Below are positions 1,102 to 10,833 of a stretch of 64,000 nucleotides of DNA, one piece after another. Numbering within the stretch: position 1 is the first letter of the stretch; each line of letters begins with the position of its first letter. Position numbers and translations under genes: made by a program. The DNA comes from Candidatus Nomurabacteria bacterium (lineage in GTDB: Bacteria; Patescibacteriota; Minisyncoccia; Phycocordibacterales; UBA9973): the NCBI GenBank assembly GCA_037139835.1, contig JBAXFQ010000002.1, forward strand, positions 10,659 through 74,658, in the 5' to 3' direction. The notes beneath the pieces were generated by a model that had not been told where the DNA came from, did not search any database, and saw nothing but the letters and a program-made list of their open reading frames with translations.

Positions 1102-1677
1102 TCAAGAAATAGATTTTAATTTATCCAACAATTCCTTTAAATCAGCGGCTAGGGGACTAAGGGGCCATTTATTTAAAATGGCGTTTATCATCTTTATATG
1201 TGAATCTATTATCTTTTCCTTCGGAGCGTGGAATTTTTTAAATATTTCTTCACCTTCTTTTTTATAGTCAACAAGTGTCTCAGATACATTGGCTATGATA
1301 TCTGCTGACTTTAATAAGAGGGAATCATGGGAGAAAGTTTTTACATGTTCTAATGCTTCAGCTTTTCTTTCTTTCCAAGACAAAGACTTATCTTGTTCTG
1401 TGACACTAAGGACAAGATTATATACATTCTCTCCGAATCTTTCGACAATCATCTCTTTTGAGACTTTCTTTTCATCAATACTGTCTTCAATAGTATCATG
1501 GAGTATTCCAGCCACTATTACATCCTCTTTTGAACCTGCTGCCGCAAGGATAAGGCCGACTGTGAGTGGGTGGGTGATATAAGGCACATCTTTACCTTTC
1601 CTTTTCTGCTTCTGGTAAATTTCATGAGTTTTAATCGCGAATCTAATCGCATGTTGTATTTTTTGAGTGTATATCAT
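1102..1677 (-). CDS. HD-domain phosphohydrolase, RelA/SpoT-like (p)ppGpp hydrolase (small alarmone hydrolase type)
   Basis: YITHPLTVGLILAAAG...VAGILHDTIEDS matches the HD motifs of the RelA/SpoT N-terminal hydrolase domain. Confidence 0.6.
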   Translation of the reverse strand: MIYTQKIQHAIRFAIKTHEIYQKQKRKGKDVPYITHPLTVGLILAAAGSKEDVIVAGILHDTIEDSIDEKKVSKEMIVERFGENVYNLVLSVTEQDKSLSWKERKAEALEHVKTFSHDSLLLKSADIIANVSETLVDYKKEGEEIFKKFHAPKEKIIDSHIKMINAILNKWPLSPLAADLKELLDKLKSIS

Positions 1678-2053: not shown

Positions 2054-3121
2054 ATGAAAAAAGAAATTGAAATAAAAAGTAAATCTTCAAATAGTAATTT
2101 ACATAAGGCAAATAAGGATAAAAAGGATGAGTTTTACACTCAGCTTATTGATATTGAAAAGGAGCTCAAAAACTATAAAGAACAATTTCGTAATAAAGTA
2201 GTATATTGCAATTGTGATGATCCTTTTGAGAGCAATTTCTTTAAATACTTTGCAAATAATTTTAATGCTCTTGGTTTAAAAAGACTTATTGCTACAAGTT
2301 ATAAGCCTTCACCTATTGCTAATACCCAACTAGAACTATTTGGAGATGATAAAACTTTAAAACCAATAAAAGGACGTCCTAAAACAAATGCTAATAAATT
2401 AATTATAAATGAAGTCAAAGATCTTGATGGTGACGGTGCGTTTGATTTGCGTGATGTTGCTGAACAACTTAAGATAAATAAAAATAATGAATGGTCACCA
2501 ATGGAAGGAGATGGAGATTTTAGAAGTGAAGAAAGTATAGAACTGTTAAAACAAGCAGATATTATAGTAACTAACCCTCCTTTTTCATTATTTAGAGAAT
2601 ATATCACACAACTTACAGAATATAATAAAAAATTTTTGATTATTGGAAATACAAATGCTCTAACTTATAAAGAAATTTTTAAATTAGTTAAAGATGACAA
2701 CCTTCGAACTGGTTATACAAATTTTAATGTCGGGATGTTTTTTGAAGTTCCTGATGATTGGCAAAAGTATCATCACATAGATGAGCACGGGAAAAAAATT
2801 GCTCGGGTTTCTACTTCATGTTGGTTTACAAATCTTGAAGTAGAAAAACATAAACAAGATATTATTCTTTATAAAAAATATGATCAAAATATTTATCTTA
2901 AGTATGATAATTATAATGGTATAGAAGTTCCAAAAGTTCAGGAGATACCAATGGATTATAAAGGTATTATGGGAGTACCAATTACTTTTGTTGACAAGTA
3001 TAACCCAGATCAATTTGAGATAATAAAATTTAGAAAAGGAGATGATGAAAAAGATTTATCTATAAATGGAGGGTATCCATATTTTAGAATTTTAATTAAA
3101 AATAAAAAACCACAAAAATAA
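2054..3121 (+). CDS. N6-adenine DNA methyltransferase, EcoRI-methylase family
   Basis: N-terminus LHKANKDKKDEFYTQLIDIEKEL...VVYCNCDDPFESNFFKYFA closely resembles the M.EcoRI N-terminus as I recall it; catalytic NPPF motif (IIVTNPPFSLF); extended -10 TGgTATAAT at ~1994-2002. Confidence 0.8.
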   Translation: MKKEIEIKSKSSNSNLHKANKDKKDEFYTQLIDIEKELKNYKEQFRNKVVYCNCDDPFESNFFKYFANNFNALGLKRLIATSYKPSPIANTQLELFGDDKTLKPIKGRPKTNANKLIINEVKDLDGDGAFDLRDVAEQLKINKNNEWSPMEGDGDFRSEESIELLKQADIIVTNPPFSLFREYITQLTEYNKKFLIIGNTNALTYKEIFKLVKDDNLRTGYTNFNVGMFFEVPDDWQKYHHIDEHGKKIARVSTSCWFTNLEVEKHKQDIILYKKYDQNIYLKYDNYNGIEVPKVQEIPMDYKGIMGVPITFVDKYNPDQFEIIKFRKGDDEKDLSINGGYPYFRILIKNKKPQK

Positions 3122-3122
3122 T

Positions 3123-4226
3123 ATGAAAATAGATTTAAATAAAATAAAAATTGTTGATGTTGTAAAAGATTATAAAGATAGTGCTGAAGAAGGAATATCT
3201 GCTTTTGGTGGTAAGTTAGATATTCGTCCTAAATATCAAAGAGAGTTTGTATATAGTGGAAAGCAAAGAGATGAAGTAATAAAAACTATTAAAAATGGTT
3301 TTCCTCTAAATGTTATGTATTGGGTTAAGAAAGAAGACGGTAATTTCGAAGTACTTGATGGGCAGCAAAGAACCATAAGTATTGCTCAATATGTCAATGG
3401 AGATTTCTCTATCGAATTCAATGGTAGAACTGCAATGTTTCATAATTTAACCAAAGAAGAGCAAAATCAGATTATGAATTATGAACTTATGATTTATCAC
3501 TGCGAAGGAACTGAAAAGGAAAAACTTGATTGGTTCAAAATAATTAATATAGCAGGAGAAAAATTAACAGATCAGGAGCTTAGAAATGCTGTTTATACTG
3601 GACCATGGCTTTCTGATGCAAAATTAAAGTTTAGTAAAACAAATTGTGCTGCATATTTACTATCAAATGATGGTGGACAACTAATAACTGGTTCACCAAT
3701 AAGACAGGAATATTTGGAAACTGCACTATTGTGGATAAATAATGAGGAAATAGAAGATTATATGTCTAAACATCAGCATGATAAAAATGCAGACAAACTA
3801 TGGCAATATTTTCAAAATGTAATTCATTGGATACGAGAAGTTTTTCCTAATTATCGTAAAGAGATGTCGAGTGTTAGTTGGGGTGAGCTTTATAATGCAC
3901 TTAAGGATAAAAAACTTGATTCAAAAAAAATAGAAAAAGAAATTAAAGAATTAATGCAAGAAGAAGATGTAACAAAAAAATCTGGCATTTATCCGTATGT
4001 GCTTACTCGAAAAGAGAGATATCTTTCTATTCGAGCATTTACACCAAACATGAAAAGAGAAGCATACGAAAGACAAGGTGGCATTTGTGTTGCCTGTAAA
4101 AAAGAATTTTCAATTGGAGATATGGAAGCTGATCATATAAAACCATGGCACGAAGGAGGTAGGACTATTGCCGAAAATTGTCAGATGCTTTGCAAAGAAG
4201 ATAATAGAACTAAATCTGGAAAATAG
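3123..4226 (+). CDS. ParB-like DUF262 domain + C-terminal HNH endonuclease (GmrSD-like two-domain nuclease)
   Basis: DUF262 signature DGQQRT (FEVLDGQQRTISIAQY); C-terminal His-Me/HNH motif CVACKKEF...ADHIKPWHEGG...NCQMLCKEDN; start 1 nt after the MTase stop (operon). Confidence 0.75.
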   Translation: MKIDLNKIKIVDVVKDYKDSAEEGISAFGGKLDIRPKYQREFVYSGKQRDEVIKTIKNGFPLNVMYWVKKEDGNFEVLDGQQRTISIAQYVNGDFSIEFNGRTAMFHNLTKEEQNQIMNYELMIYHCEGTEKEKLDWFKIINIAGEKLTDQELRNAVYTGPWLSDAKLKFSKTNCAAYLLSNDGGQLITGSPIRQEYLETALLWINNEEIEDYMSKHQHDKNADKLWQYFQNVIHWIREVFPNYRKEMSSVSWGELYNALKDKKLDSKKIEKEIKELMQEEDVTKKSGIYPYVLTRKERYLSIRAFTPNMKREAYERQGGICVACKKEFSIGDMEADHIKPWHEGGRTIAENCQMLCKEDNRTKSGK

Positions 4227-4260: not shown

Positions 4261-4310
4261 CAAAAAATGCCTCATAAGTGAATTATCACTTATGAGGCAT
4301 TTGATATTTA
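4261..4310. terminator. bidirectional rho-independent terminator (14-bp perfect stem ATGCCTCATAAGTG / CACTTATGAGGCAT)
   Basis: Perfect hairpin flanked by an A-run on the left and a T-run on the right, between convergent genes. Confidence 0.75.
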
Positions 4311-4318
4311 AAATTAAA

Positions 4319-4720
4319 TTAATTTTTGCGTTTATCTATTTTTATTGATAATTGCATTTCTTTTACTATAGAGTCCATACTTCTATTTATTTTTTTGATA
4401 TCATAGAGTATTTGATCCTTAGTTTCTACTGTATCCCTTTTTAGGAATTTTGATGTAAATTGCTTTACATCAGGATAAAATGTGGGAATTAAGGAATCGA
4501 CTTTGGTCAATTTAGAATTTTCTAGTGAATATAGACGAGCATCAATTCTCTTGAATTTTTCAACATAGATAACCATTATAATAGATTGGCTAATAGTTAA
4601 AATCAATAATGATAAATAAATTACATCAATAAAAGAAATTTTCATAATTTTTTGGATTATTTTTTGAGCATTATTCGCTATCTTTAATCTAAAACATAAA
4701 AACAGACGAATGCCTTTCAC
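4319..4720 (-). CDS. hypothetical membrane protein (133 aa)
   Basis: ORF track; one hydrophobic segment; no recognisable motif. Confidence 0.3.
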   Translation of the reverse strand: MKGIRLFLCFRLKIANNAQKIIQKIMKISFIDVIYLSLLILTISQSIIMVIYVEKFKRIDARLYSLENSKLTKVDSLIPTFYPDVKQFTSKFLKRDTVETKDQILYDIKKINRSMDSIVKEMQLSIKIDKRKN

Positions 4721-5866: not shown

Positions 5867-6619
5867 ATGTATAATAAACGAATGCATAGCAAAAAAATAA
5901 TTATAATTTTATACTGTATTTTTATTTTGTGTGGCGCCTTGTCTTTGGTTTATATTCCAGATGCATCAAAATATTCTTATGGCTCAATTTTTGCATTGTT
6001 CATAATATCTCTACCTTTGTTTTATACACTTTATTTTAGATTTGGAATAAATACATTCATTAAATTAATTTTTTCTCTATCTTTATTTGCATTGCTCATA
6101 GAATATGTAGGGCTTGTCACAGGTTGGCCGTATGGAGAATTCTTATATACTGGGAATCTCGGTTATAAATTGTTTGGAATACTGCCATGGACTGTCGGAC
6201 TTTCCTGGACACCGCTTGTCGTCGGGTCTGTTGCTATGGTCTATCCTGTCACACAAAGAAAAGTATTACGAATCATATTGCCTGTAATAGTGTTGGTTGT
6301 TTTTGATCTGCTTCTTGATCCAGTAGCTGTTAATTTGGGTATGTGGTCATATTTACATGGTGGGGCATATTACAGCGTGCCTATTCAAAACTTTTTTGGT
6401 TGGATATTTTCTGGTTTGATTGGATCATTAATATGTTTTTATATTTTAAATAAATCTGATAATAAAATTTTTAATTTAGGATATAGTCTTCTTATTAATA
6501 TTATTTTTTGGTCTATCGTAGCTTGGGGTTTAGGATTGTATATACCTTTAATTTTCGGAATTTTTCTTATTATGTGTTTTACTGTGATATACTTTAAAAA
6601 TAATGAAAGATTTTCTTAA
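5867..6619 (+). CDS. polytopic membrane protein, carotenoid-cluster associated (candidate lycopene-cyclase-domain / carotenoid hydratase-like protein)
   Basis: About 7 hydrophobic segments; 3' end overlaps the start of the UbiA-family gene (translational coupling); function inferred from context only. Alternative start ATG 5882 (the 5867 ATG sits inside a TGTATAAT-like -10). Confidence 0.35.
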   Translation: MYNKRMHSKKIIIILYCIFILCGALSLVYIPDASKYSYGSIFALFIISLPLFYTLYFRFGINTFIKLIFSLSLFALLIEYVGLVTGWPYGEFLYTGNLGYKLFGILPWTVGLSWTPLVVGSVAMVYPVTQRKVLRIILPVIVLVVFDLLLDPVAVNLGMWSYLHGGAYYSVPIQNFFGWIFSGLIGSLICFYILNKSDNKIFNLGYSLLINIIFWSIVAWGLGLYIPLIFGIFLIMCFTVIYFKNNERFS

Positions 6620-7433
6620 GATAAGTCGCCCAAGGTTTTGGGTTTATGTAGCGGGACCCTTTTGGCTTTGTGGAGCTATATTTTACCCGTTGGGTGTAAA
6701 TATTACCCCGATGCTCATTTTTTTACTTTACTTTACCTTTCCGGCGAATATTTTAATATATGGAATCAATGATTTATATGATCGTGCAACCGACACTCTC
6801 AATACTAAAAAGACTTCATATGAGCAGGTTTTAGATAAAAAGTATGATAAAAAATTGATCTGGATTATCATACTTACAAATATACCTTTTTTGATTTATG
6901 GTTTTTTTGTTTTGCCAACAGCGTCATTTATATGCCTATTATTATTTGTAGTTTTATCTTGGCAGTATTCTGCAACTCCATTAAGAGCCAAAGCTGTCCC
7001 ATTTTTAGATAGCTTTGTCAGTGGTCTTTTATATATAGTGCCAGCCGGTGTTTCTTGGGCCCTTATTACAAATTCTTATCCACCATTCTTGCCAATGTTG
7101 GCTGGCTTTTTATGGTCTTACTCTATGCATTTGTATTCTGCTGTGCCTGATATCAATGCAGATAAAATGGCAGGTATCCAAACGGGAGCGACACTCTTAG
7201 GTAAAAATACCACGCTTATTTTATGTGGTGTTTTATATGCAGTGTCTTCCTTGATAGCTTATTTTTATATTGGGTTTTTTGCAATTATTGCTGGGTTGGG
7301 ATATTTGTATTTAATATTTATTTCCATCAAAAAAAGTAAACCAGAAGAAGTTCTCGTTATATATAAAATATTTCCATTTTTAAATACATTAGTTGGTGGA
7401 ATTCTTTTCGCGATTCTATTTTTTCTGCATTAA
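6603..7433 (+). CDS. UbiA-family aromatic/isoprenoid prenyltransferase (candidate lycopene elongase-like)
   Basis: UbiA superfamily Asp-rich motif NDLYDRATD and second motif DINAD; polytopic membrane protein; adjacent to crtI/crtB/polyprenyl synthase. Confidence 0.6.
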   Translation: MKDFLKISRPRFWVYVAGPFWLCGAIFYPLGVNITPMLIFLLYFTFPANILIYGINDLYDRATDTLNTKKTSYEQVLDKKYDKKLIWIIILTNIPFLIYGFFVLPTASFICLLLFVVLSWQYSATPLRAKAVPFLDSFVSGLLYIVPAGVSWALITNSYPPFLPMLAGFLWSYSMHLYSAVPDINADKMAGIQTGATLLGKNTTLILCGVLYAVSSLIAYFYIGFFAIIAGLGYLYLIFISIKKSKPEEVLVIYKIFPFLNTLVGGILFAILFFLH

Positions 7434-8945
7434 TTATAGACTCTTTAGAGGATGAACATCTTCATTTTTTGTAATACGTTTATAGACTAATTCTGCTGAG
7501 ATTATGCATATAGGCATACCTATACCTGGGTTTGTACCTGCTCCGACATAAAATAAATTTTTTATTGTTTTATGAATATTGTTTGGTCTAAATAGTGCAG
7601 TTTGATTTATCGTATGAGCAAGACCTAGGGCTGTGCCTTTATAAGCATTGTAGTCTATTTCAAAATTTTTAATAGAATAAGTCTTTTTAAAAATTATTCT
7701 ATCTCTAATATTATTTACACCTGCATAATTTTCAATTTCTGATAATACTTTTTCTGTGTATTCCTTTTCGAAATTATCATCATATGTAAGGCCTGGGGCT
7801 ATAGGTACTAAGACGAACAAATTTTCACAGTCAGCAGGCGCAATATTCTTATCGCTTTTTGATGGAGCACTTATATAAATAGATGGATCATCGGGCCATT
7901 TAGGATTATGAAATATCTGATCAAAGCCTTTACTCCAGTCTTTTGAAAAAATTAAATTATGATGTTCTAAGCTAGGTATTTTATCTTTTATACCTAGATA
8001 AAGTATAAATGCACTAGGGGCAAGCATTCGACTATCCCAATATTTTTCGCTGTGCTCTTGGTATGGTGCTTTTAATAAATGTTGATCAGTGTATGTAATA
8101 TCTGCATTTGAAATAACAATATCAGCGAAAATTTTTTCATCATTGTTTGTCAATCTTATGCCTTTGGCGATGTTATCTTCTACGATAATCTCACTTACTG
8201 GCGAATTTTTCATTATTTTTACGCCATTTTTAATTGCAATTTTTTCCATTGCCTCTGGTAGTTTCCAGACACCTCCATCGGGGTACCATACTCCTAGTCC
8301 AAAATCTACATAATTCATCATGCTATATATACCAGGGCAGTCGCCAGGAGCAGTCCCTAGTAACACCATTTGATATTGCAAGACTTTTTGCAATATCTCA
8401 CTTTTGAAGCGAGACTCGATTATTTGCTTTTGCTTTTTTAGAAGTGGTAATTTCCATCCAACTTTAGCGACACTCCAAGTTAGAAAATCAAAAATAGAAT
8501 TATAATTTTTAAACATGAATTCATTATATGCAATACTGTATTGTAATTTTAATTTATCTAAAAATTTTACCAATACCTGTCCGCTACCTGGTTCTATTTT
8601 TTCAAATGTTTCTTTATTTTTATCTATATCACCAAAAAAATCATAATGTGATTTGTCACTTTTTAGGAAAACACGGTATGAAGGGGACAGCTTTTTTAAA
8701 GTATAATAATCACTGATTTTTTCACCCATAAGTTCAAAGAAATGTTCGAATACTTCAGGCATCATATACCAGCTTGGGCCCATGTCGAAGATAAAACCAT
8801 TTTGTTCAAATACTCTGGCCCGACCACCGACTGATTCATTCTTTTCAACAATCGTTACATCGTAGCCCTTTTTTGCAAGCATACAAGCCGAGGCCAAGCC
8901 TCCGATACCCGCACCAATAATGATTATAGATTCTTTTTTATTCAT
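7434..8945 (-). CDS. crtI: phytoene desaturase family FAD-dependent oxidoreductase (CrtI/CrtN-like)
   Basis: N-terminal FAD fold IIIGAGIGGLASACMLAKKGYDVTIVEKNESVGGRA; ~500 aa, typical of the CrtI family. Confidence 0.8.
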   Translation of the reverse strand: MNKKESIIIIGAGIGGLASACMLAKKGYDVTIVEKNESVGGRARVFEQNGFIFDMGPSWYMMPEVFEHFFELMGEKISDYYTLKKLSPSYRVFLKSDKSHYDFFGDIDKNKETFEKIEPGSGQVLVKFLDKLKLQYSIAYNEFMFKNYNSIFDFLTWSVAKVGWKLPLLKKQKQIIESRFKSEILQKVLQYQMVLLGTAPGDCPGIYSMMNYVDFGLGVWYPDGGVWKLPEAMEKIAIKNGVKIMKNSPVSEIIVEDNIAKGIRLTNNDEKIFADIVISNADITYTDQHLLKAPYQEHSEKYWDSRMLAPSAFILYLGIKDKIPSLEHHNLIFSKDWSKGFDQIFHNPKWPDDPSIYISAPSKSDKNIAPADCENLFVLVPIAPGLTYDDNFEKEYTEKVLSEIENYAGVNNIRDRIIFKKTYSIKNFEIDYNAYKGTALGLAHTINQTALFRPNNIHKTIKNLFYVGAGTNPGIGMPICIISAELVYKRITKNEDVHPLKSL

Positions 8946-8949
8946 AAGA

Positions 8950-9792
8950 TTAAAAATATTTAATTATAATATAGATCTTTCTAAGTATTGAAACTCGCAC
9001 TCTTTCCTTGAATATTCTTTCGGGCTTCTTCTTTATTTTTTCCATTATTTCTTTATACAAATAAAGGGCTATACGTACCGCCCGCCTCCCTGATTTATTT
9101 AACATTGGTATACCTTTTAGTGCTTCATTGTATAAAATTTCGTTTCTTTCAATTTCATACAGTACTAGTTTTTTCATTTGTTCGCTCATTACTTCATTAT
9201 GAAAATCAGCTTCTGTCATGTTGTATCTTTTTATATCATCTTGAGGTATGTATATGCGCCCACGAGCTAGGTCTTCCTTTATGTCACGTAAAAAGTTTGT
9301 AAGCTGAAATGCTTCCGCTAATGCTTTTGCATAGATTAAAGCCCCATCATTAAAGCCGATTATACAGGACATCATATAACCCACAACAGTAGCTGAACCG
9401 TACATGTATTTCTCAAGTTCACTGTAATTTGCATAACGATTTTTATTCGTATCTTGAAGCATTGAGTCTAGAAATATATCACTGTACTCAAAAGGTATCT
9501 TGCAGTCATTCCAGAGTACTGCATTGGCTCTAAGTACTGGGTTCACATCAGTTGATCCATTATATGCCTTTTCCCATTCATTCTTCCACGCTAAAATTTT
9601 TTGTCTTGCTATATTTGAATCTTTCTCTTCGGTATCAACTATTTCATCAGGATAGCGCACAAATGCATATAATACCCAAGTCCGTTCTCTCAAATTTTTT
9701 GGGAAAAAATATGTAGAAATAAAATACGATGTACCATATGAACGAGTCATATTTTTGCAAATTTGTATATCATTTGATTGGATTTTTTCCAT
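8950..9792 (-). CDS. crtB: phytoene/squalene (dehydrosqualene) synthase family
   Basis: YAFVRYPDEIVD (first Asp-rich motif) and DLARGRIYIP (second motif) of trans-isoprenyl diphosphate synthase head-to-head enzymes. Confidence 0.8.
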   Translation of the reverse strand: MEKIQSNDIQICKNMTRSYGTSYFISTYFFPKNLRERTWVLYAFVRYPDEIVDTEEKDSNIARQKILAWKNEWEKAYNGSTDVNPVLRANAVLWNDCKIPFEYSDIFLDSMLQDTNKNRYANYSELEKYMYGSATVVGYMMSCIIGFNDGALIYAKALAEAFQLTNFLRDIKEDLARGRIYIPQDDIKRYNMTEADFHNEVMSEQMKKLVLYEIERNEILYNEALKGIPMLNKSGRRAVRIALYLYKEIMEKIKKKPERIFKERVRVSILRKIYIIIKYF

Positions 9793-10833
9793 TTAGTATT
9801 TTCTTTTTGTTACTATTGAAAGTAAGTTTATAATTTTTTCTAAGTATTCCTTTTTTAAATTAGATTTTGAGATAGCGTCCAGAGCAATACTTTCTTTCTG
9901 TTTAATAAAATTTTCCGCAAAATTAAAAGCTCCAGTATGCTTTAGAAATAAATTTATTTCCTCTTGGTTATTTATGTTTTTGTTTCCAAACCATTTAGCC
10001 CAAGTCTCATTTTCTTCCATTGTTGCATTTTCATCAATGTATATACTTATCATAGTATGTACTCCGTTTTTCATATCACCCAAGGGGTTCTTTTTAAGTG
10101 TCACTACATCTTTTGTGAAATCAAAAATATCATCTTGCATTTGAAATAGTAAGCCTACAGAATCACCGAAATCCGTAATCCATGAAAAATCTTTAATTTC
10201 ACCTTTGGCTAGTATCGCTCCCAACATTAAAGGGTGGGTGAAAGTATACCTAGCAGTTTTTAAGAGCATCTTATTCTCGGCATTAATCATAGTTACTGAT
10301 TTATCAATAGGATCATATACATCAATCATTTGGCCAATTATTACCTCTTCTGTAAGTAAATGAATAATATTCCAAGATTCCTGCGTTTGATTGCATTTAC
10401 TGAATTCTTTGTATGCCCAAGAAAAAACAAGGTCACCTAATAGTATCGCTATCGACTGACTTATTTGTTTTGCTGTTTCTTTATTTGTTTTAGAATCTAG
10501 GTCCTGTTCTATGTATTTATGTACAGAGGTGGCTCCATGTCGTGTATCTGATGCATCCATGATATCGTCATGAATCAGTGCCATTAAGTGAATTAGCTCT
10601 ATACCTATTAAAGTATTTTTTATGTCATGCCAGTTTTTACCAGAATATATACTATATGTCAGCGCAGTATTGTATGGTCGTATTCTCTTGCCGTTCGAGC
10701 CAATTGTAAGTAAATATTTTAAATAATCTGTACTTGGGTGTAATTTAAGTCTAGAATTTGAATCTGATATTAGCATTTTTAGCTCATTTTCAAATATAAT
10801 ATCAAATTCTACTTTAAAATCATTTATATTCAT
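9793..10833 (-). CDS. polyprenyl diphosphate synthase (GGPP/FPP synthase type)
   Basis: FARM LIHDDIMDASDTRHG and SARM FQMQDDIFDF. Confidence 0.8.
   Translation of the reverse strand: MNINDFKVEFDIIFENELKMLISDSNSRLKLHPSTDYLKYLLTIGSNGKRIRPYNTALTYSIYSGKNWHDIKNTLIGIELIHLMALIHDDIMDASDTRHGATSVHKYIEQDLDSKTNKETAKQISQSIAILLGDLVFSWAYKEFSKCNQTQESWNIIHLLTEEVIIGQMIDVYDPIDKSVTMINAENKMLLKTARYTFTHPLMLGAILAKGEIKDFSWITDFGDSVGLLFQMQDDIFDFTKDVVTLKKNPLGDMKNGVHTMISIYIDENATMEENETWAKWFGNKNINNQEEINLFLKHTGAFNFAENFIKQKESIALDAISKSNLKKEYLEKIINLLSIVTKRKY

What the first reader, a model, noticed from the sequence alone, without database searches (positions are those of the whole stretch)
2054..4226. EcoRI-family adenine methyltransferase coupled to a short DUF262(ParB-like)+HNH nuclease: atypical two-gene restriction/defence module
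The MTase is strongly EcoRI-methylase-like (DEFYTQ...YCNCDDP N-terminus, NPPF). Its partner is not a PD-(D/E)xK EcoRI-type endonuclease. It is a 367-aa fusion of a DUF262 ParB/Srx-like domain (DGQQRT) with a classical C-terminal HNH motif, starting 1 nt after the MTase stop. DUF262+His-Me architecture is typical of GmrSD-type (Type IV) modification-dependent enzymes, which are normally stand-alone. An operonic pairing with an m6A MTase suggests either a Type II-like R-M system with an unusual nuclease, or a composite MTase/Type IV defence pair.
Basis: partly seen in the sequence, partly recalled or inferred. Interest (0 to 1): 0.6.

Follow-up and report, generated by a model that had tools for sequence, protein, structure and literature searches.

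The report
MTase-dependent ParB-HNH restriction module
This is a very widespread but uncharacterised two-gene restriction-modification cassette in which an EcoRI-type methyltransferase with swappable DNA-reading modules appears to supply the target specificity for a conserved NTPase-like HNH nuclease, which would differ from the textbook Type II arrangement.

Summary
An EcoRI-family m6A methyltransferase gene (2054-3121) is followed one base later by a 367-aa DUF262(ParB/Srx)+HNH nuclease gene (3123-4226).

The pair is not a local oddity. An EcoRI-family MTase lies next to the nuclease in every informative locus: 77/77 genome loci and 80/80 viral contigs, plus plasmids and a cultured phage. 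PADLOC already holds a full-length 'Type II REase' model for the nuclease.

It does not behave like an orthodox Type II system:
- The MTase C-terminal half consists of two hypervariable modules whose discrete types recombine freely.
- The nuclease is indifferent to the MTase type, but co-diverges with the MTase catalytic half.
- Intact nucleases persist beside broken MTases, including on an isolate plasmid.
- One viral contig has two MTases with different modules and one nuclease.
- One Mollicutes-like genome fuses a catalytically degenerate MTase to the nuclease.

Best reading: an R-M system with Type I/III-like logic, in which the MTase supplies specificity and the nuclease is an MTase-dependent, probably NTP-gated effector. 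This is inferred, not demonstrated.

The 'MTase + Type IV' reading is not supported. Novelty: a new variant of a known kind.

The parts
2054..3121 (+). EcoRI-family (gamma-class) N6-adenine DNA methyltransferase gene, 355 aa
2573..2584 (+). Catalytic motif IV, NPPF (aa 174-177)
   Evidence: Invariant N174 P175 P176 F177 in 121 homologues.
2705..2827 (+). Variable module A of the MTase (aa ~218-258), type 'NFNVGMFFEVPDDW...KIARVSTSCW'; inferred target-recognition element
   Evidence: Column identity 0.36-0.38 in close relatives, against 0.8-0.95 in the catalytic half. 17 discrete types in genome loci and 26 in viral loci. The M.EcoRI specificity residue H235 aligns to the adjoining residues 266-267, which co-vary with module A.
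3023..3091 (+). Variable module B of the MTase (aa ~324-346), type 'KFRKGDDEKDLSING', the same type as in M.EcoRI
   Evidence: 36 types in genome loci. 14 unrelated types of 23-94 aa on MTases that share the window's module A. Shared with authentic M.EcoRI.
3123..4226 (+). DUF262(ParB/Srx-like)+HNH nuclease gene, 367 aa
3222..3596 (+). DUF262/GmrSD_N ParB-Srx-fold domain (aa 34-158), with the DGQQR NTP-pocket motif at 3357-3371
   Evidence: PF03235 E=4e-19. D79-R83 and R35/P36/Q39/R40/E41 are invariant down to 39% identity. DGQQR is required for NTP hydrolysis and defence in BrxU and HEC-06 according to the literature.
4086..4217 (+). Zinc-finger HNH nuclease domain (aa 322-365)
   Evidence: PF01844 E=4e-11. 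C322, C325, D337, H338, N352, C353, C357 and N361 are invariant.
4265..4302 (.). Perfect 17-bp inverted repeat between the nuclease stop and the convergent ORF 4319..4720(-); likely bidirectional terminator closing the cassette
   Evidence: Terminator scan; sequence read. Function is inferred.

Best explanation
A mobile two-gene restriction-modification cassette with Type I/III-like logic, built from different parts.

The EcoRI-family N6-adenine MTase marks host DNA. Through two exchangeable C-terminal modules it also defines the DNA target. The downstream protein is a compact GmrSD/SspE-like enzyme (ParB/Srx NTPase-type domain, helical linker, zinc-finger HNH). It has no matching sequence specificity of its own and is active only together with the MTase. 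Most likely it is recruited or licensed by MTase bound at an unmethylated site, with NTP binding or hydrolysis at the DGQQR pocket acting as the switch that releases HNH cleavage.

Shown here:
- the domain identities and intact catalytic motifs;
- obligate gene linkage;
- combinatorial shuffling of the MTase modules;
- independence of the nuclease sequence from the MTase module type;
- shared history of the nuclease and the MTase catalytic half;
- survival of intact nucleases next to broken MTases;
- one nuclease serving two MTases;
- one natural fusion of a degenerate MTase to the nuclease.

Inferred: that the modules set specificity, that the two proteins interact physically, that unmethylated DNA is the substrate, and the role of NTP.

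Confidence that this is an R-M type defence/addiction module at all is about 0.85. The confidence given below is for the MTase-dependent mechanism.
For: (1) Linkage. An EcoRI-like MTase lies upstream on the same strand in 77/80 genome loci; the other 3 are cut with under 900 nt upstream. It is adjacent in 80/80 viral loci, and also on plasmids and in Flavobacterium phage laban6-1.

(2) Module shuffling. There are 17 A types and 36 B types in 46 combinations among 71 loci; 8 A types occur with more than one B type, and 8 B types with more than one A type. This replicates in viral loci with 26 x 45 types and 56 combinations. In database homologues, 14 B types sit on one A type.

(3) The nuclease ignores the MTase type. 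Nuclease identity is 85.0% when the partner MTases share both modules and 85.5% when they do not. No nuclease column is associated with module type: the best AMI is 0.12 against a permutation 95th percentile of 0.24, while the positive control reaches 0.83. Nucleases 97.6% identical are paired with MTases of different types.

(4) Mantel tests in 35 close loci. MTase catalytic half vs nuclease: r=0.32, p=0.004. MTase C-terminal half vs nuclease: r=-0.01, p=0.55.

(5) Logic. An independent nuclease must be at least as specific as its MTase. An invariant nuclease therefore cannot match MTases with different specificities.

(6) Intact nuclease beside a disrupted MTase. The clearest case is the Chryseobacterium taklimakanense H4753 plasmid, from a cultured isolate: two frameshifts and no annotated CDS. 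Others are L077 (a 106-aa stump plus a 3-kb Mrr insertion), L012, L015, L054 and viral L153. Three of the five nucleases checked match at all 23 invariant positions examined; L054 carries C325G, a zinc-ligand Cys, and L077 carries G145S.

(7) L123 has two tandem MTases, 84% identical in the catalytic half but with different A and B modules, upstream of one nuclease.

(8) P0369/L090 is a genuine in-frame fusion of MTase+DUF262+HNH in a code-4 genome. Its MTase half has lost DEFYTQ, CNCDDP and NPPF but keeps the C-terminal scaffold.

(9) The nuclease fold matches the NTP-dependent BrxU, SspE and DndI. I recognised no separate DNA sequence-reading domain; the helical middle region (aa ~160-300) has no Pfam annotation.

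(10) In S. indolifex DSM 14862, which carries a homologous pair (nuclease 56% identical), GAATTC is not methylated. The strain-specific m6A motif is the asymmetric GGCATC (PMC9025767).
Against: - No biochemical or genetic data exist for any member. Physical M-R interaction was not tested, as no multimer prediction was available.
- That modules A and B determine specificity is inferred. The grounds are their position in the C-terminal half (where gamma-class TRDs lie, from general knowledge), their discrete non-homologous types, and the proximity of M.EcoRI H235. The C-terminal domain has no solved homologue.
- Frameshifted MTases in MAGs may be assembly errors. The isolate plasmid could be protected by another MTase.
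- PADLOC files the nuclease as a Type II REase.
- A controller-like HTH gene precedes the MTase in 7 loci, a feature typical of orthodox Type II systems, although it is also sensible for any system that attacks unmethylated DNA.
- In about a third of CPR loci, unrelated genes separate M and R, so tight translational coupling is not required.
- Only one convincing M-R fusion was found.
- In the more divergent viral set the MTase C-terminal half does correlate with the nuclease (r=0.27), as expected from shared deep phylogeny.
Confidence: 0.55

Rival explanations
1. Orthodox Type II R-M. The DUF262-HNH protein is a free-standing, sequence-specific endonuclease that independently recognises the same site as the MTase, which protects the host by methylating it.
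For: Two separate genes in an operon. PADLOC full-length REase_II hit. The MTase belongs to the family of a classic Type IIP enzyme, M.EcoRI. A controller-like HTH gene lies upstream in 7 relatives. The pair occurs on small plasmids, like addiction modules.
Against: The nuclease shows no co-variation with the MTase's variable modules. Intact nucleases sit next to broken MTases, including on an isolate plasmid. One nuclease serves two MTases with different modules. A degenerate MTase is fused to the nuclease. The ParB/Srx NTPase-type pocket is conserved, and orthodox Type II enzymes do not need one. I recognised no separate sequence-reading domain in the nuclease.
Confidence: 0.15
2. SspE-like sensing. 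The nuclease does not bind the MTase. Instead its DUF262 domain reads m6A marks on host DNA as a licence, which triggers NTPase activity, and the HNH domain then nicks or cuts unmodified invader DNA with little sequence specificity.
For: Structural similarity to SspE and DndI. SspE depends on host phosphorothioate marks made by partner genes, and its DUF262 NTPase triggers the nuclease. This reading also explains the nuclease's indifference to MTase specificity and its harmlessness when the MTase is broken.
Against: It does not explain the natural fusion with a catalytically degenerate MTase that retains its recognition scaffold. It also does not explain the specific co-divergence of the nuclease with the MTase catalytic half. 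Recognition of m6A independent of sequence context by a DUF262 domain has no precedent known to me.
Confidence: 0.15
3. Composite of an MTase with a Type IV (modification-dependent) GmrSD-like enzyme. The nuclease attacks foreign modified DNA, and the MTase is functionally separate.
For: The DUF262 plus His-Me architecture resembles GmrSD and BrxU.
Against: There is no DUF1524 hit. The protein is half the size of BrxU and SspE (580 and 560 aa). The nuclease was never found without an adjacent EcoRI-family MTase gene or its remnant in 157 informative loci. The genes overlap or abut. The nuclease co-diverges with the MTase catalytic half. A fusion protein exists.
Confidence: 0.05
4. Primarily a selfish mobile or addiction cassette, in which the HNH enzyme promotes the spread or maintenance of the pair, with no real defence role.
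For: No conserved flanking synteny. The pair is present on plasmids, phages and jumbo viral contigs and across bacteria and archaea. Nucleases 77-90% identical occur across many CPR lineages, which suggests recent transfer.
Against: Mobility is typical of all R-M systems and does not exclude defence. Defence-type genes (Fic, ThsB-like TIR, T5orf172) are embedded between M and R. Broken-MTase loci that keep the nuclease argue against classic post-segregational killing.
Confidence: 0.05

Closest known systems
EcoRI R-M system (Type IIP; M.EcoRI + R.EcoRI)
   Same: The MTase is a true family member: PF13651 at E=3.9e-130, 54-55% identical to M.EcoRI, and even carrying the same module B type.
   Different: The partner is a DUF262-HNH protein, not the PD-(D/E)xK R.EcoRI. 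Gene order is M then R, rather than R then M. Module A differs. A homologous MTase in S. indolifex does not methylate GAATTC. The nuclease appears to depend on the MTase.
GmrSD / BrxU family Type IV restriction enzymes
   Different: 367 aa against 580 aa for BrxU. The nuclease domain is a zinc-finger PF01844 HNH rather than DUF1524. It is always linked to an MTase gene and is not stand-alone, so it is presumably directed at unmodified rather than modified DNA.
SspABCD-SspE / Dnd-DndI phosphorothioate systems
   Same: A DUF262-nuclease protein works together with host DNA-modification genes. Its activity depends on the modification system, and NTPase gates the nuclease.
   Different: The modification here is m6A made by a single MTase, not phosphorothioation by a multi-gene pathway. 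The nuclease domain family differs. A fusion to an MTase-derived domain suggests direct coupling.
Type III (Mod/Res) and Type I (HsdM/S/R) R-M systems
   Same: The logic is shared. Specificity resides in the modification component, whose recognition domains shuffle, while the nuclease component is conserved and harmless without it, and contains an NTPase (the properties of Types I and III are from general knowledge).
   Different: The parts are unrelated: a monomeric gamma-class EcoRI-type MTase rather than beta-class Mod or HsdM+HsdS, and a ParB/Srx-fold domain plus HNH rather than an SF2 helicase plus PD-(D/E)xK.
Menshen (NsnA), PD-T4-2, Dazbog, HEC-06
   Same: Defence proteins that carry DUF262. 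PADLOC NsnA and PD-T4-2_A match the N-terminal domain only (E=7.5e-28 and 8e-11).
   Different: Those systems have other partners (OLD nuclease, HEPN and so on), and none is described in these sources as coupled to an MTase.

Membership tests
EcoRI_methylase family (PF13651), gamma-class N6A MTase | Significant full-length match to the family profile | tested here: met
   E=3.9e-130, aa 15-332 onto profile positions 1-306 of 345; 54-55% identity to M.EcoRI.
EcoRI_methylase family (PF13651), gamma-class N6A MTase | AdoMet-binding and catalytic motifs (DEFYTQ, CNCDDP, NPPF) intact and in gamma order | tested here: met
   All are present in the window protein and invariant in 121 homologues.
EcoRI_methylase family (PF13651), gamma-class N6A MTase | Methylates GAATTC | not testable with these tools
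   Module A differs from M.EcoRI. A homologue in S. indolifex does not methylate GAATTC. There is no avoidance signal for GAATTC or AATT in the window.
Orthodox Type II (IIP) restriction endonuclease | Separate R gene adjacent to the M gene | tested here: met
   PADLOC REase_II full-length hit.
Orthodox Type II (IIP) restriction endonuclease | R recognises the same sequence independently of M, so R must co-vary with M specificity | tested here: not met
   No association between the nuclease sequence and MTase module type. Nucleases 97.6% identical pair with different MTase types, and two MTases share one nuclease in L123. This test is indirect, because it assumes the modules set specificity.
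Orthodox Type II (IIP) restriction endonuclease | R is toxic without M, so R is not maintained intact beside an inactive M | tested here: not met
   Intact nucleases lie beside disrupted MTases in L086 (isolate plasmid), L077, L012, L015, L054 and L153. Caveats: possible MAG assembly errors, and possible protection by other MTases.
Orthodox Type II (IIP) restriction endonuclease | Needs only Mg2+, with no NTP cofactor | not testable with these tools
   The ParB/Srx DGQQR pocket is invariant, which suggests use of NTP.
GmrSD-family Type IV enzyme | N-terminal DUF262 domain with DGQQR | tested here: met
GmrSD-family Type IV enzyme | C-terminal DUF1524 (PF07510) nuclease domain | tested here: not met
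   No PF07510 hit at E<=0.1; the domain is PF01844 HNH with a CxxC...CxxxC zinc site.
GmrSD-family Type IV enzyme | Stand-alone, modification-dependent enzyme | tested here: not met
   An EcoRI-family MTase gene or its remnant is adjacent in all 157 informative loci. Modification dependence itself is not testable here.
Type III R-M | Res subunit with an SF2 helicase ATPase and PD-(D/E)xK nuclease; beta-class Mod | tested here: not met
   The domains are ParB/Srx plus HNH, and the MTase is gamma-class EcoRI type. Only the logic is similar.
Ssp/Dnd phosphorothioate-sensing systems | Partner sspABCD or dnd modification genes | tested here: not met
   The partner is a single m6A MTase.

The most novel reading that the evidence does not exclude
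This pair would represent a further mechanistic class of restriction-modification. A monomeric EcoRI-type MTase acts as an exchangeable specificity subunit, with two recombining recognition modules that allow asymmetric targets. It guides an NTP-switched ParB-fold HNH nuclease that cannot act alone. That is Type III/I logic reinvented from unrelated parts. It would also be one of the most abundant defence cassettes of CPR/Patescibacteria and would be carried by many phages. Such a nuclease would be naturally reprogrammable by swapping MTase modules.
Probability: 0.4. Interest if true: 0.8.

Novelty: new variant of a known kind. Interest (0 to 1): 0.66.

Why it matters
If the nuclease takes its target from the MTase, this very common cassette is mis-filed as an ordinary Type II system. 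The family has more than 8000 clusters at 90% identity, appears on 293 viral contigs and many plasmids, and occurs in bacteria and archaea.

That reading would define a new R-M architecture in which a ParB/Srx NTPase fold replaces the helicase motor or switch of Types I and III. It would explain how CPR bacteria, reported to be largely devoid of CRISPR-Cas (my recollection, not checked here), diversify restriction specificity cheaply by shuffling two small MTase modules. It would also offer a compact nuclease whose specificity could be reprogrammed through a separate, modular protein.

It further extends the 'embedded defence gene' phenomenon to a two-gene R-M pair. One practical point follows: on an Enterococcus plasmid the antibiotic-resistance gene optrA sits inside such a cassette.

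Tried and rejected
- Palindrome avoidance in the 64-kb window, to guess the target. AATT, GAATTC and CAATTG are not depleted, and only weak signals appear for ACGT, GATC and GGTACC. This was uninformative, and an asymmetric target would not show up anyway.
- Sequence search of the PDB. The nuclease has no significant relatives (best E=0.016, an HNH stretch) and the MTase has none at all.
- NCBIfam. It gave only sub-threshold HNH-region hits to Cas9d and IscB.
- Fold search for the MTase C-terminal domain. Only the Rossmann domain matched, so I could not place modules A and B on a DNA complex.
- Identifying the REBASE prototype behind PADLOC model PDLC03418. This was not possible with the tools. 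Seven literature searches found no characterised member, only the passing remark on S. indolifex.
- P0501 as a second M-R fusion. I rejected it because the junction and C-terminus read like out-of-frame GC-rich translation, most likely a frameshift artefact or pseudogene.
- Flank synteny, to define insertion borders. None of the window's flanking genes occurs in any of the 80 genome loci.
- The gene neighbouring the fusion in L090, as a possible protective MTase. It is a lipoprotein-like gene.
Full report
OBSERVATION. The junction reads AAA-TAA-t-ATG, with one base between the MTase stop and the nuclease start and no separate ribosome-binding site visible.

Pfam gives EcoRI_methylase (PF13651) at E=3.9e-130 for the first protein. 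For the second it gives GmrSD_N/DUF262 (aa 34-158, E=4e-19) plus HNH PF01844 (aa 322-365, E=4e-11), with no DUF1524. PADLOC gives full-length hits to MTase_II (E=7e-121) and to a REase_II model, PDLC03418 (residues 1-367 onto 1-372 of 372, E=4e-135). Only the N-terminal domain matches NsnA and PD-T4-2_A.

HOW COMMON IT IS, AND WHETHER THE PAIRING IS REAL. The nuclease has more than 8000 scored relatives at 90% clustering. The top 120 are 77-90% identical and come from many Patescibacteria/CPR lineages. At 50% clustering there are 480 clusters with E<=1e-30, almost all 360-410 aa long.

In 80 loci from species-representative genomes (CPR, Bacteroidales, Clostridia, Chloroflexi, Acinetobacter, Liberibacter, Woesearchaeota, Nitrosopumilaceae), 77 have an EcoRI-like MTase upstream on the same strand. 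The other three are cut by the contig end with under 900 nt upstream. In an independent set of 80 viral contigs, drawn from 293 hits and including contigs over 200 kb, all 80 have the MTase adjacent: 69 intact upstream, 5 cut by the contig end, 5 partial or multi-HSP (one of these frameshifted), and one in the order R then M.

The pair also occurs on plasmids of cultured bacteria (Macrococcoides, Enterococcus, Sulfitobacter, Lactobacillaceae and others) and in Flavobacterium phage laban6-1 as gp007/gp008. None of the window's flanking genes recurs in any related locus, so the pair moves as a cassette. In the window it is closed by a perfect 17-bp hairpin at 4265-4302.

THE KEY FINDING: A MODULAR MTase AND AN INDIFFERENT NUCLEASE. 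Among 37 close loci the nuclease is uniformly conserved (mean column identity 0.86). The MTase is conserved in its catalytic half (0.8-0.95) but hypervariable at residues ~211-270 and ~316-345 (0.32-0.56).

The alignment shows two modules, A (~218-258) and B (~324-346), each falling into discrete, mutually unalignable types of differing length, and these recombine. Among 71 loci there are 17 A types and 36 B types in 46 combinations. Eight A types occur with several B types, and eight B types with several A types. The viral set replicates this with 26 x 45 types and 56 combinations. Among 120 database homologues, 116 share the window's module A but carry 14 unrelated B modules of 23-94 aa, on catalytic halves that are on average 83% identical.

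The window's module B is the same type as that of M.EcoRI, while its module A differs. The M.EcoRI residue H235, whose mutation changes specificity and intercalation (PMC2396439), aligns to residues 266-267. These lie in the short segment that co-varies with module A at AMI up to 0.59. This supports, but does not prove, that the modules are target-recognition elements.

The nuclease does not follow the MTase type. Its pairwise identity is 85.0% when the partner MTases share both modules and 85.5% when they do not. No nuclease column is associated with the module A or B type: the best AMI is 0.12 against a permutation 95th percentile of 0.24, while the positive control reaches 0.83.

Mantel tests in the close set give r=0.32 (p=0.004) between the MTase catalytic half and the nuclease, and r=-0.01 (p=0.55) between the MTase C-terminal half and the nuclease. 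So the catalytic core of M and the nuclease travel together while the recognition modules are swapped in and out. From general knowledge, this is the pattern of HsdM/HsdR versus HsdS, or of Res versus the Mod TRD.

The logic is as follows. An independently acting endonuclease must be at least as specific as its protecting MTase. An invariant nuclease therefore cannot be matched to MTases of differing specificity. Either the modules do not change specificity, or the nuclease depends on the MTase.

NATURAL EXPERIMENTS.
(i) Broken M, intact R. In the complete plasmid of the cultured isolate Chryseobacterium taklimakanense H4753, the MTase has two frameshifts and is not annotated as a CDS, while the nuclease is intact. 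In L077 the MTase is a 106-aa stump, interrupted by about 3 kb that carries two Mrr genes. L012 and L015 have single-base deletions, L054 has several frameshifts, and viral L153 has one. Three of the five nucleases checked match at all 23 invariant positions examined; L054 carries C325G, a zinc-ligand Cys, and L077 carries G145S. MAG frameshifts may be assembly errors, and another MTase could protect the isolate, so this evidence is supportive rather than conclusive.

(ii) Two MTases, one nuclease. Viral L123 has two tandem MTases that are 84% identical in the catalytic half but differ in both modules (C-terminal halves 52% identical). A single nuclease follows them.

(iii) A fusion. P0369 (688 aa) contains EcoRI_methylase, GmrSD_N and HNH in one polypeptide. 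Its DNA (L090) shows a host that uses genetic code 4. All seven in-frame TGA codons fall on tryptophans that are invariant in the family, and the 23-residue linker has no stop codon of any kind, so the fusion is genuine. Its MTase half is 42% identical to the window MTase but has lost every invariant cofactor and catalytic motif: DEFYTQ to NNLFAS, CNCDDP to CNAGDG, GDGDFRS to ENGSFNG, TNPPF to TFPSF. It retains the C-terminal scaffold. This is what would be expected if the MTase body serves the nuclease as a DNA-recognition module.

(iv) A methylome. In S. indolifex DSM 14862, whose plasmid carries a homologous pair (nuclease 56% identical), PacBio data show that GAATTC is not methylated. [quoted passage not shown] The motif has not been assigned experimentally to this MTase.

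MECHANISM. The best-supported model, at about 0.55 confidence, is an R-M system with Type I/III-like logic. The MTase both marks self DNA and defines the target. The ParB/Srx-HNH protein is an MTase-dependent, probably NTP-gated, effector that attacks unmethylated DNA.

A close rival (0.15) is SspE-like licensing by m6A without a physical complex. It explains the nuclease's indifference and its harmlessness, but not the fusion to a dead MTase or the specific co-divergence with the MTase catalytic half.

The orthodox Type II reading (0.15) is favoured by the PADLOC label and by a controller-like HTH_3 gene directly upstream of the MTase in 7 relatives. There is no such gene in the window.

The reading of a Type IV enzyme plus an unrelated MTase (0.05) is contradicted by the obligate linkage, the absence of DUF1524 and the fusion. 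A purely selfish cassette (0.05) is not excluded, but it is not an alternative mechanism.

COMPARISON AND NOVELTY. The MTase is a bona fide member of the EcoRI_methylase family. The nuclease is a structural relative of GmrSD, BrxU and SspE. It fails two defining features of that family, DUF1524 and stand-alone occurrence, and by indirect tests it fails the independence criteria of orthodox Type II enzymes.

Reviews of DUF262 systems list GmrSD, BrxU, SspE, Menshen, Dazbog, PD-T4-2 and HEC-06. None is MTase-coupled. I found no characterised member in the held literature, and I could not identify the REBASE entries behind the PADLOC model. I therefore rate this as a new variant of a known kind. 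The family is catalogued, but its apparent mode of action has not been described.

CAVEATS. Everything mechanistic here is inferred from comparative sequence data. The equation of modules with specificity rests on position, discreteness and one mapped M.EcoRI residue. No M-R complex prediction could be run. Only one convincing fusion was found. In the more divergent viral set, the MTase C-terminal half correlates with the nuclease (r=0.27), as deep shared phylogeny would produce.

Noticed in passing
Relatives: L010 3836-4999, L027 3836-4999, L009 4388-4993, L035 4045-4884, L053 3828-4989, L005 1238-1762, L031 4295-4990, L082 1164-3131 (not in the window): In about a third of the CPR loci, and on one Enterococcus plasmid, unrelated genes are embedded between the MTase and the nuclease. 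They include Fic, a ThsB-like TIR, T5orf172, Bro-N, several unannotated membrane proteins, and the resistance gene optrA. This resembles the 'embedded defence genes' described for Hma, BREX, DISARM and Type I R-M (bioRxiv 10.1101/2024.01.29.577857), and PrrC in hsd operons.
   Followed up: partly
L090 5001-7067 (protein P0369): A natural in-frame fusion of a catalytically degenerate EcoRI-like MTase with the DUF262-HNH nuclease, in a genome that uses genetic code 4 (TGA=Trp, GC 33%). No other MTase is present in the 8 kb held.
   Followed up: yes
L123 803-3011 and nuclease at 3001-4086: A viral contig with two tandem EcoRI-family MTase genes upstream of a single nuclease. Their catalytic halves are 84% identical, but modules A and B differ.
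   Followed up: partly
L006, L007, L009 (3077-3283), L011, L030, L044, L048: A 65-68 aa HTH_3 (controller-protein-like) gene ends 2-5 nt before the MTase start in 7 of 71 loci. The window has no equivalent: the ORF at 1779-1961 has no Pfam hit.
   Followed up: partly
L077 1955-2866(-) and 3948-4970(+): Two Mrr-type (Type IV) restriction genes are inserted into the MTase gene of the pair, leaving a 106-aa MTase stump and an intact nuclease. This amounts to a small defence island built inside the cassette.
   Followed up: partly
window 2303-2503 (MTase aa ~84-150): Relative to M.EcoRI and the proteobacterial and Bacteroidales homologues, the CPR-type MTases carry an extra ~29 residues in two insertions (a short 'PSPIA' and the 24-residue 'DLDGDGAFDLRDVAEQLKINKNNE') within the catalytic domain. 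The adjacent segment aa 93-110 has pLDDT below 50. Role unknown.
   Followed up: no
window 5867-10833: By eye, the genes downstream of the cassette look like a carotenoid cluster: a phytoene desaturase-like 503-aa ORF, a phytoene synthase-like 280-aa ORF, and prenyltransferase- or cyclase-like membrane proteins. That would be unusual if the window really comes from a CPR/Patescibacteria genome, as the best nuclease hits suggest. I did not check this with HMMs, and the taxon of the window was not established.
   Followed up: no
window 1102-1677 (-): An HD-domain protein (PF13328 HD_4, E=3e-16) lies divergently upstream of the cassette. It does not recur next to the pair in other loci.
   Followed up: partly
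window 3123-4226 versus P0001-P0120: The nuclease is 77-90% identical across many named CPR lineages (Nomurabacteria, Moranbacteria, Uhrbacteria, Vogelbacteria, Magasanikbacteria, Saccharibacteria). That is much more similar than expected for vertical descent and implies recent, frequent horizontal transfer of the cassette.
   Followed up: partly
L012 ~500-520; L015 ~3745-3755: Two independent single-base deletions that disrupt the MTase fall within a few codons of each other, near aa 152-162 (the GDGDFRS motif). This could be coincidence, assembly error or a mutational hotspot.
   Followed up: no
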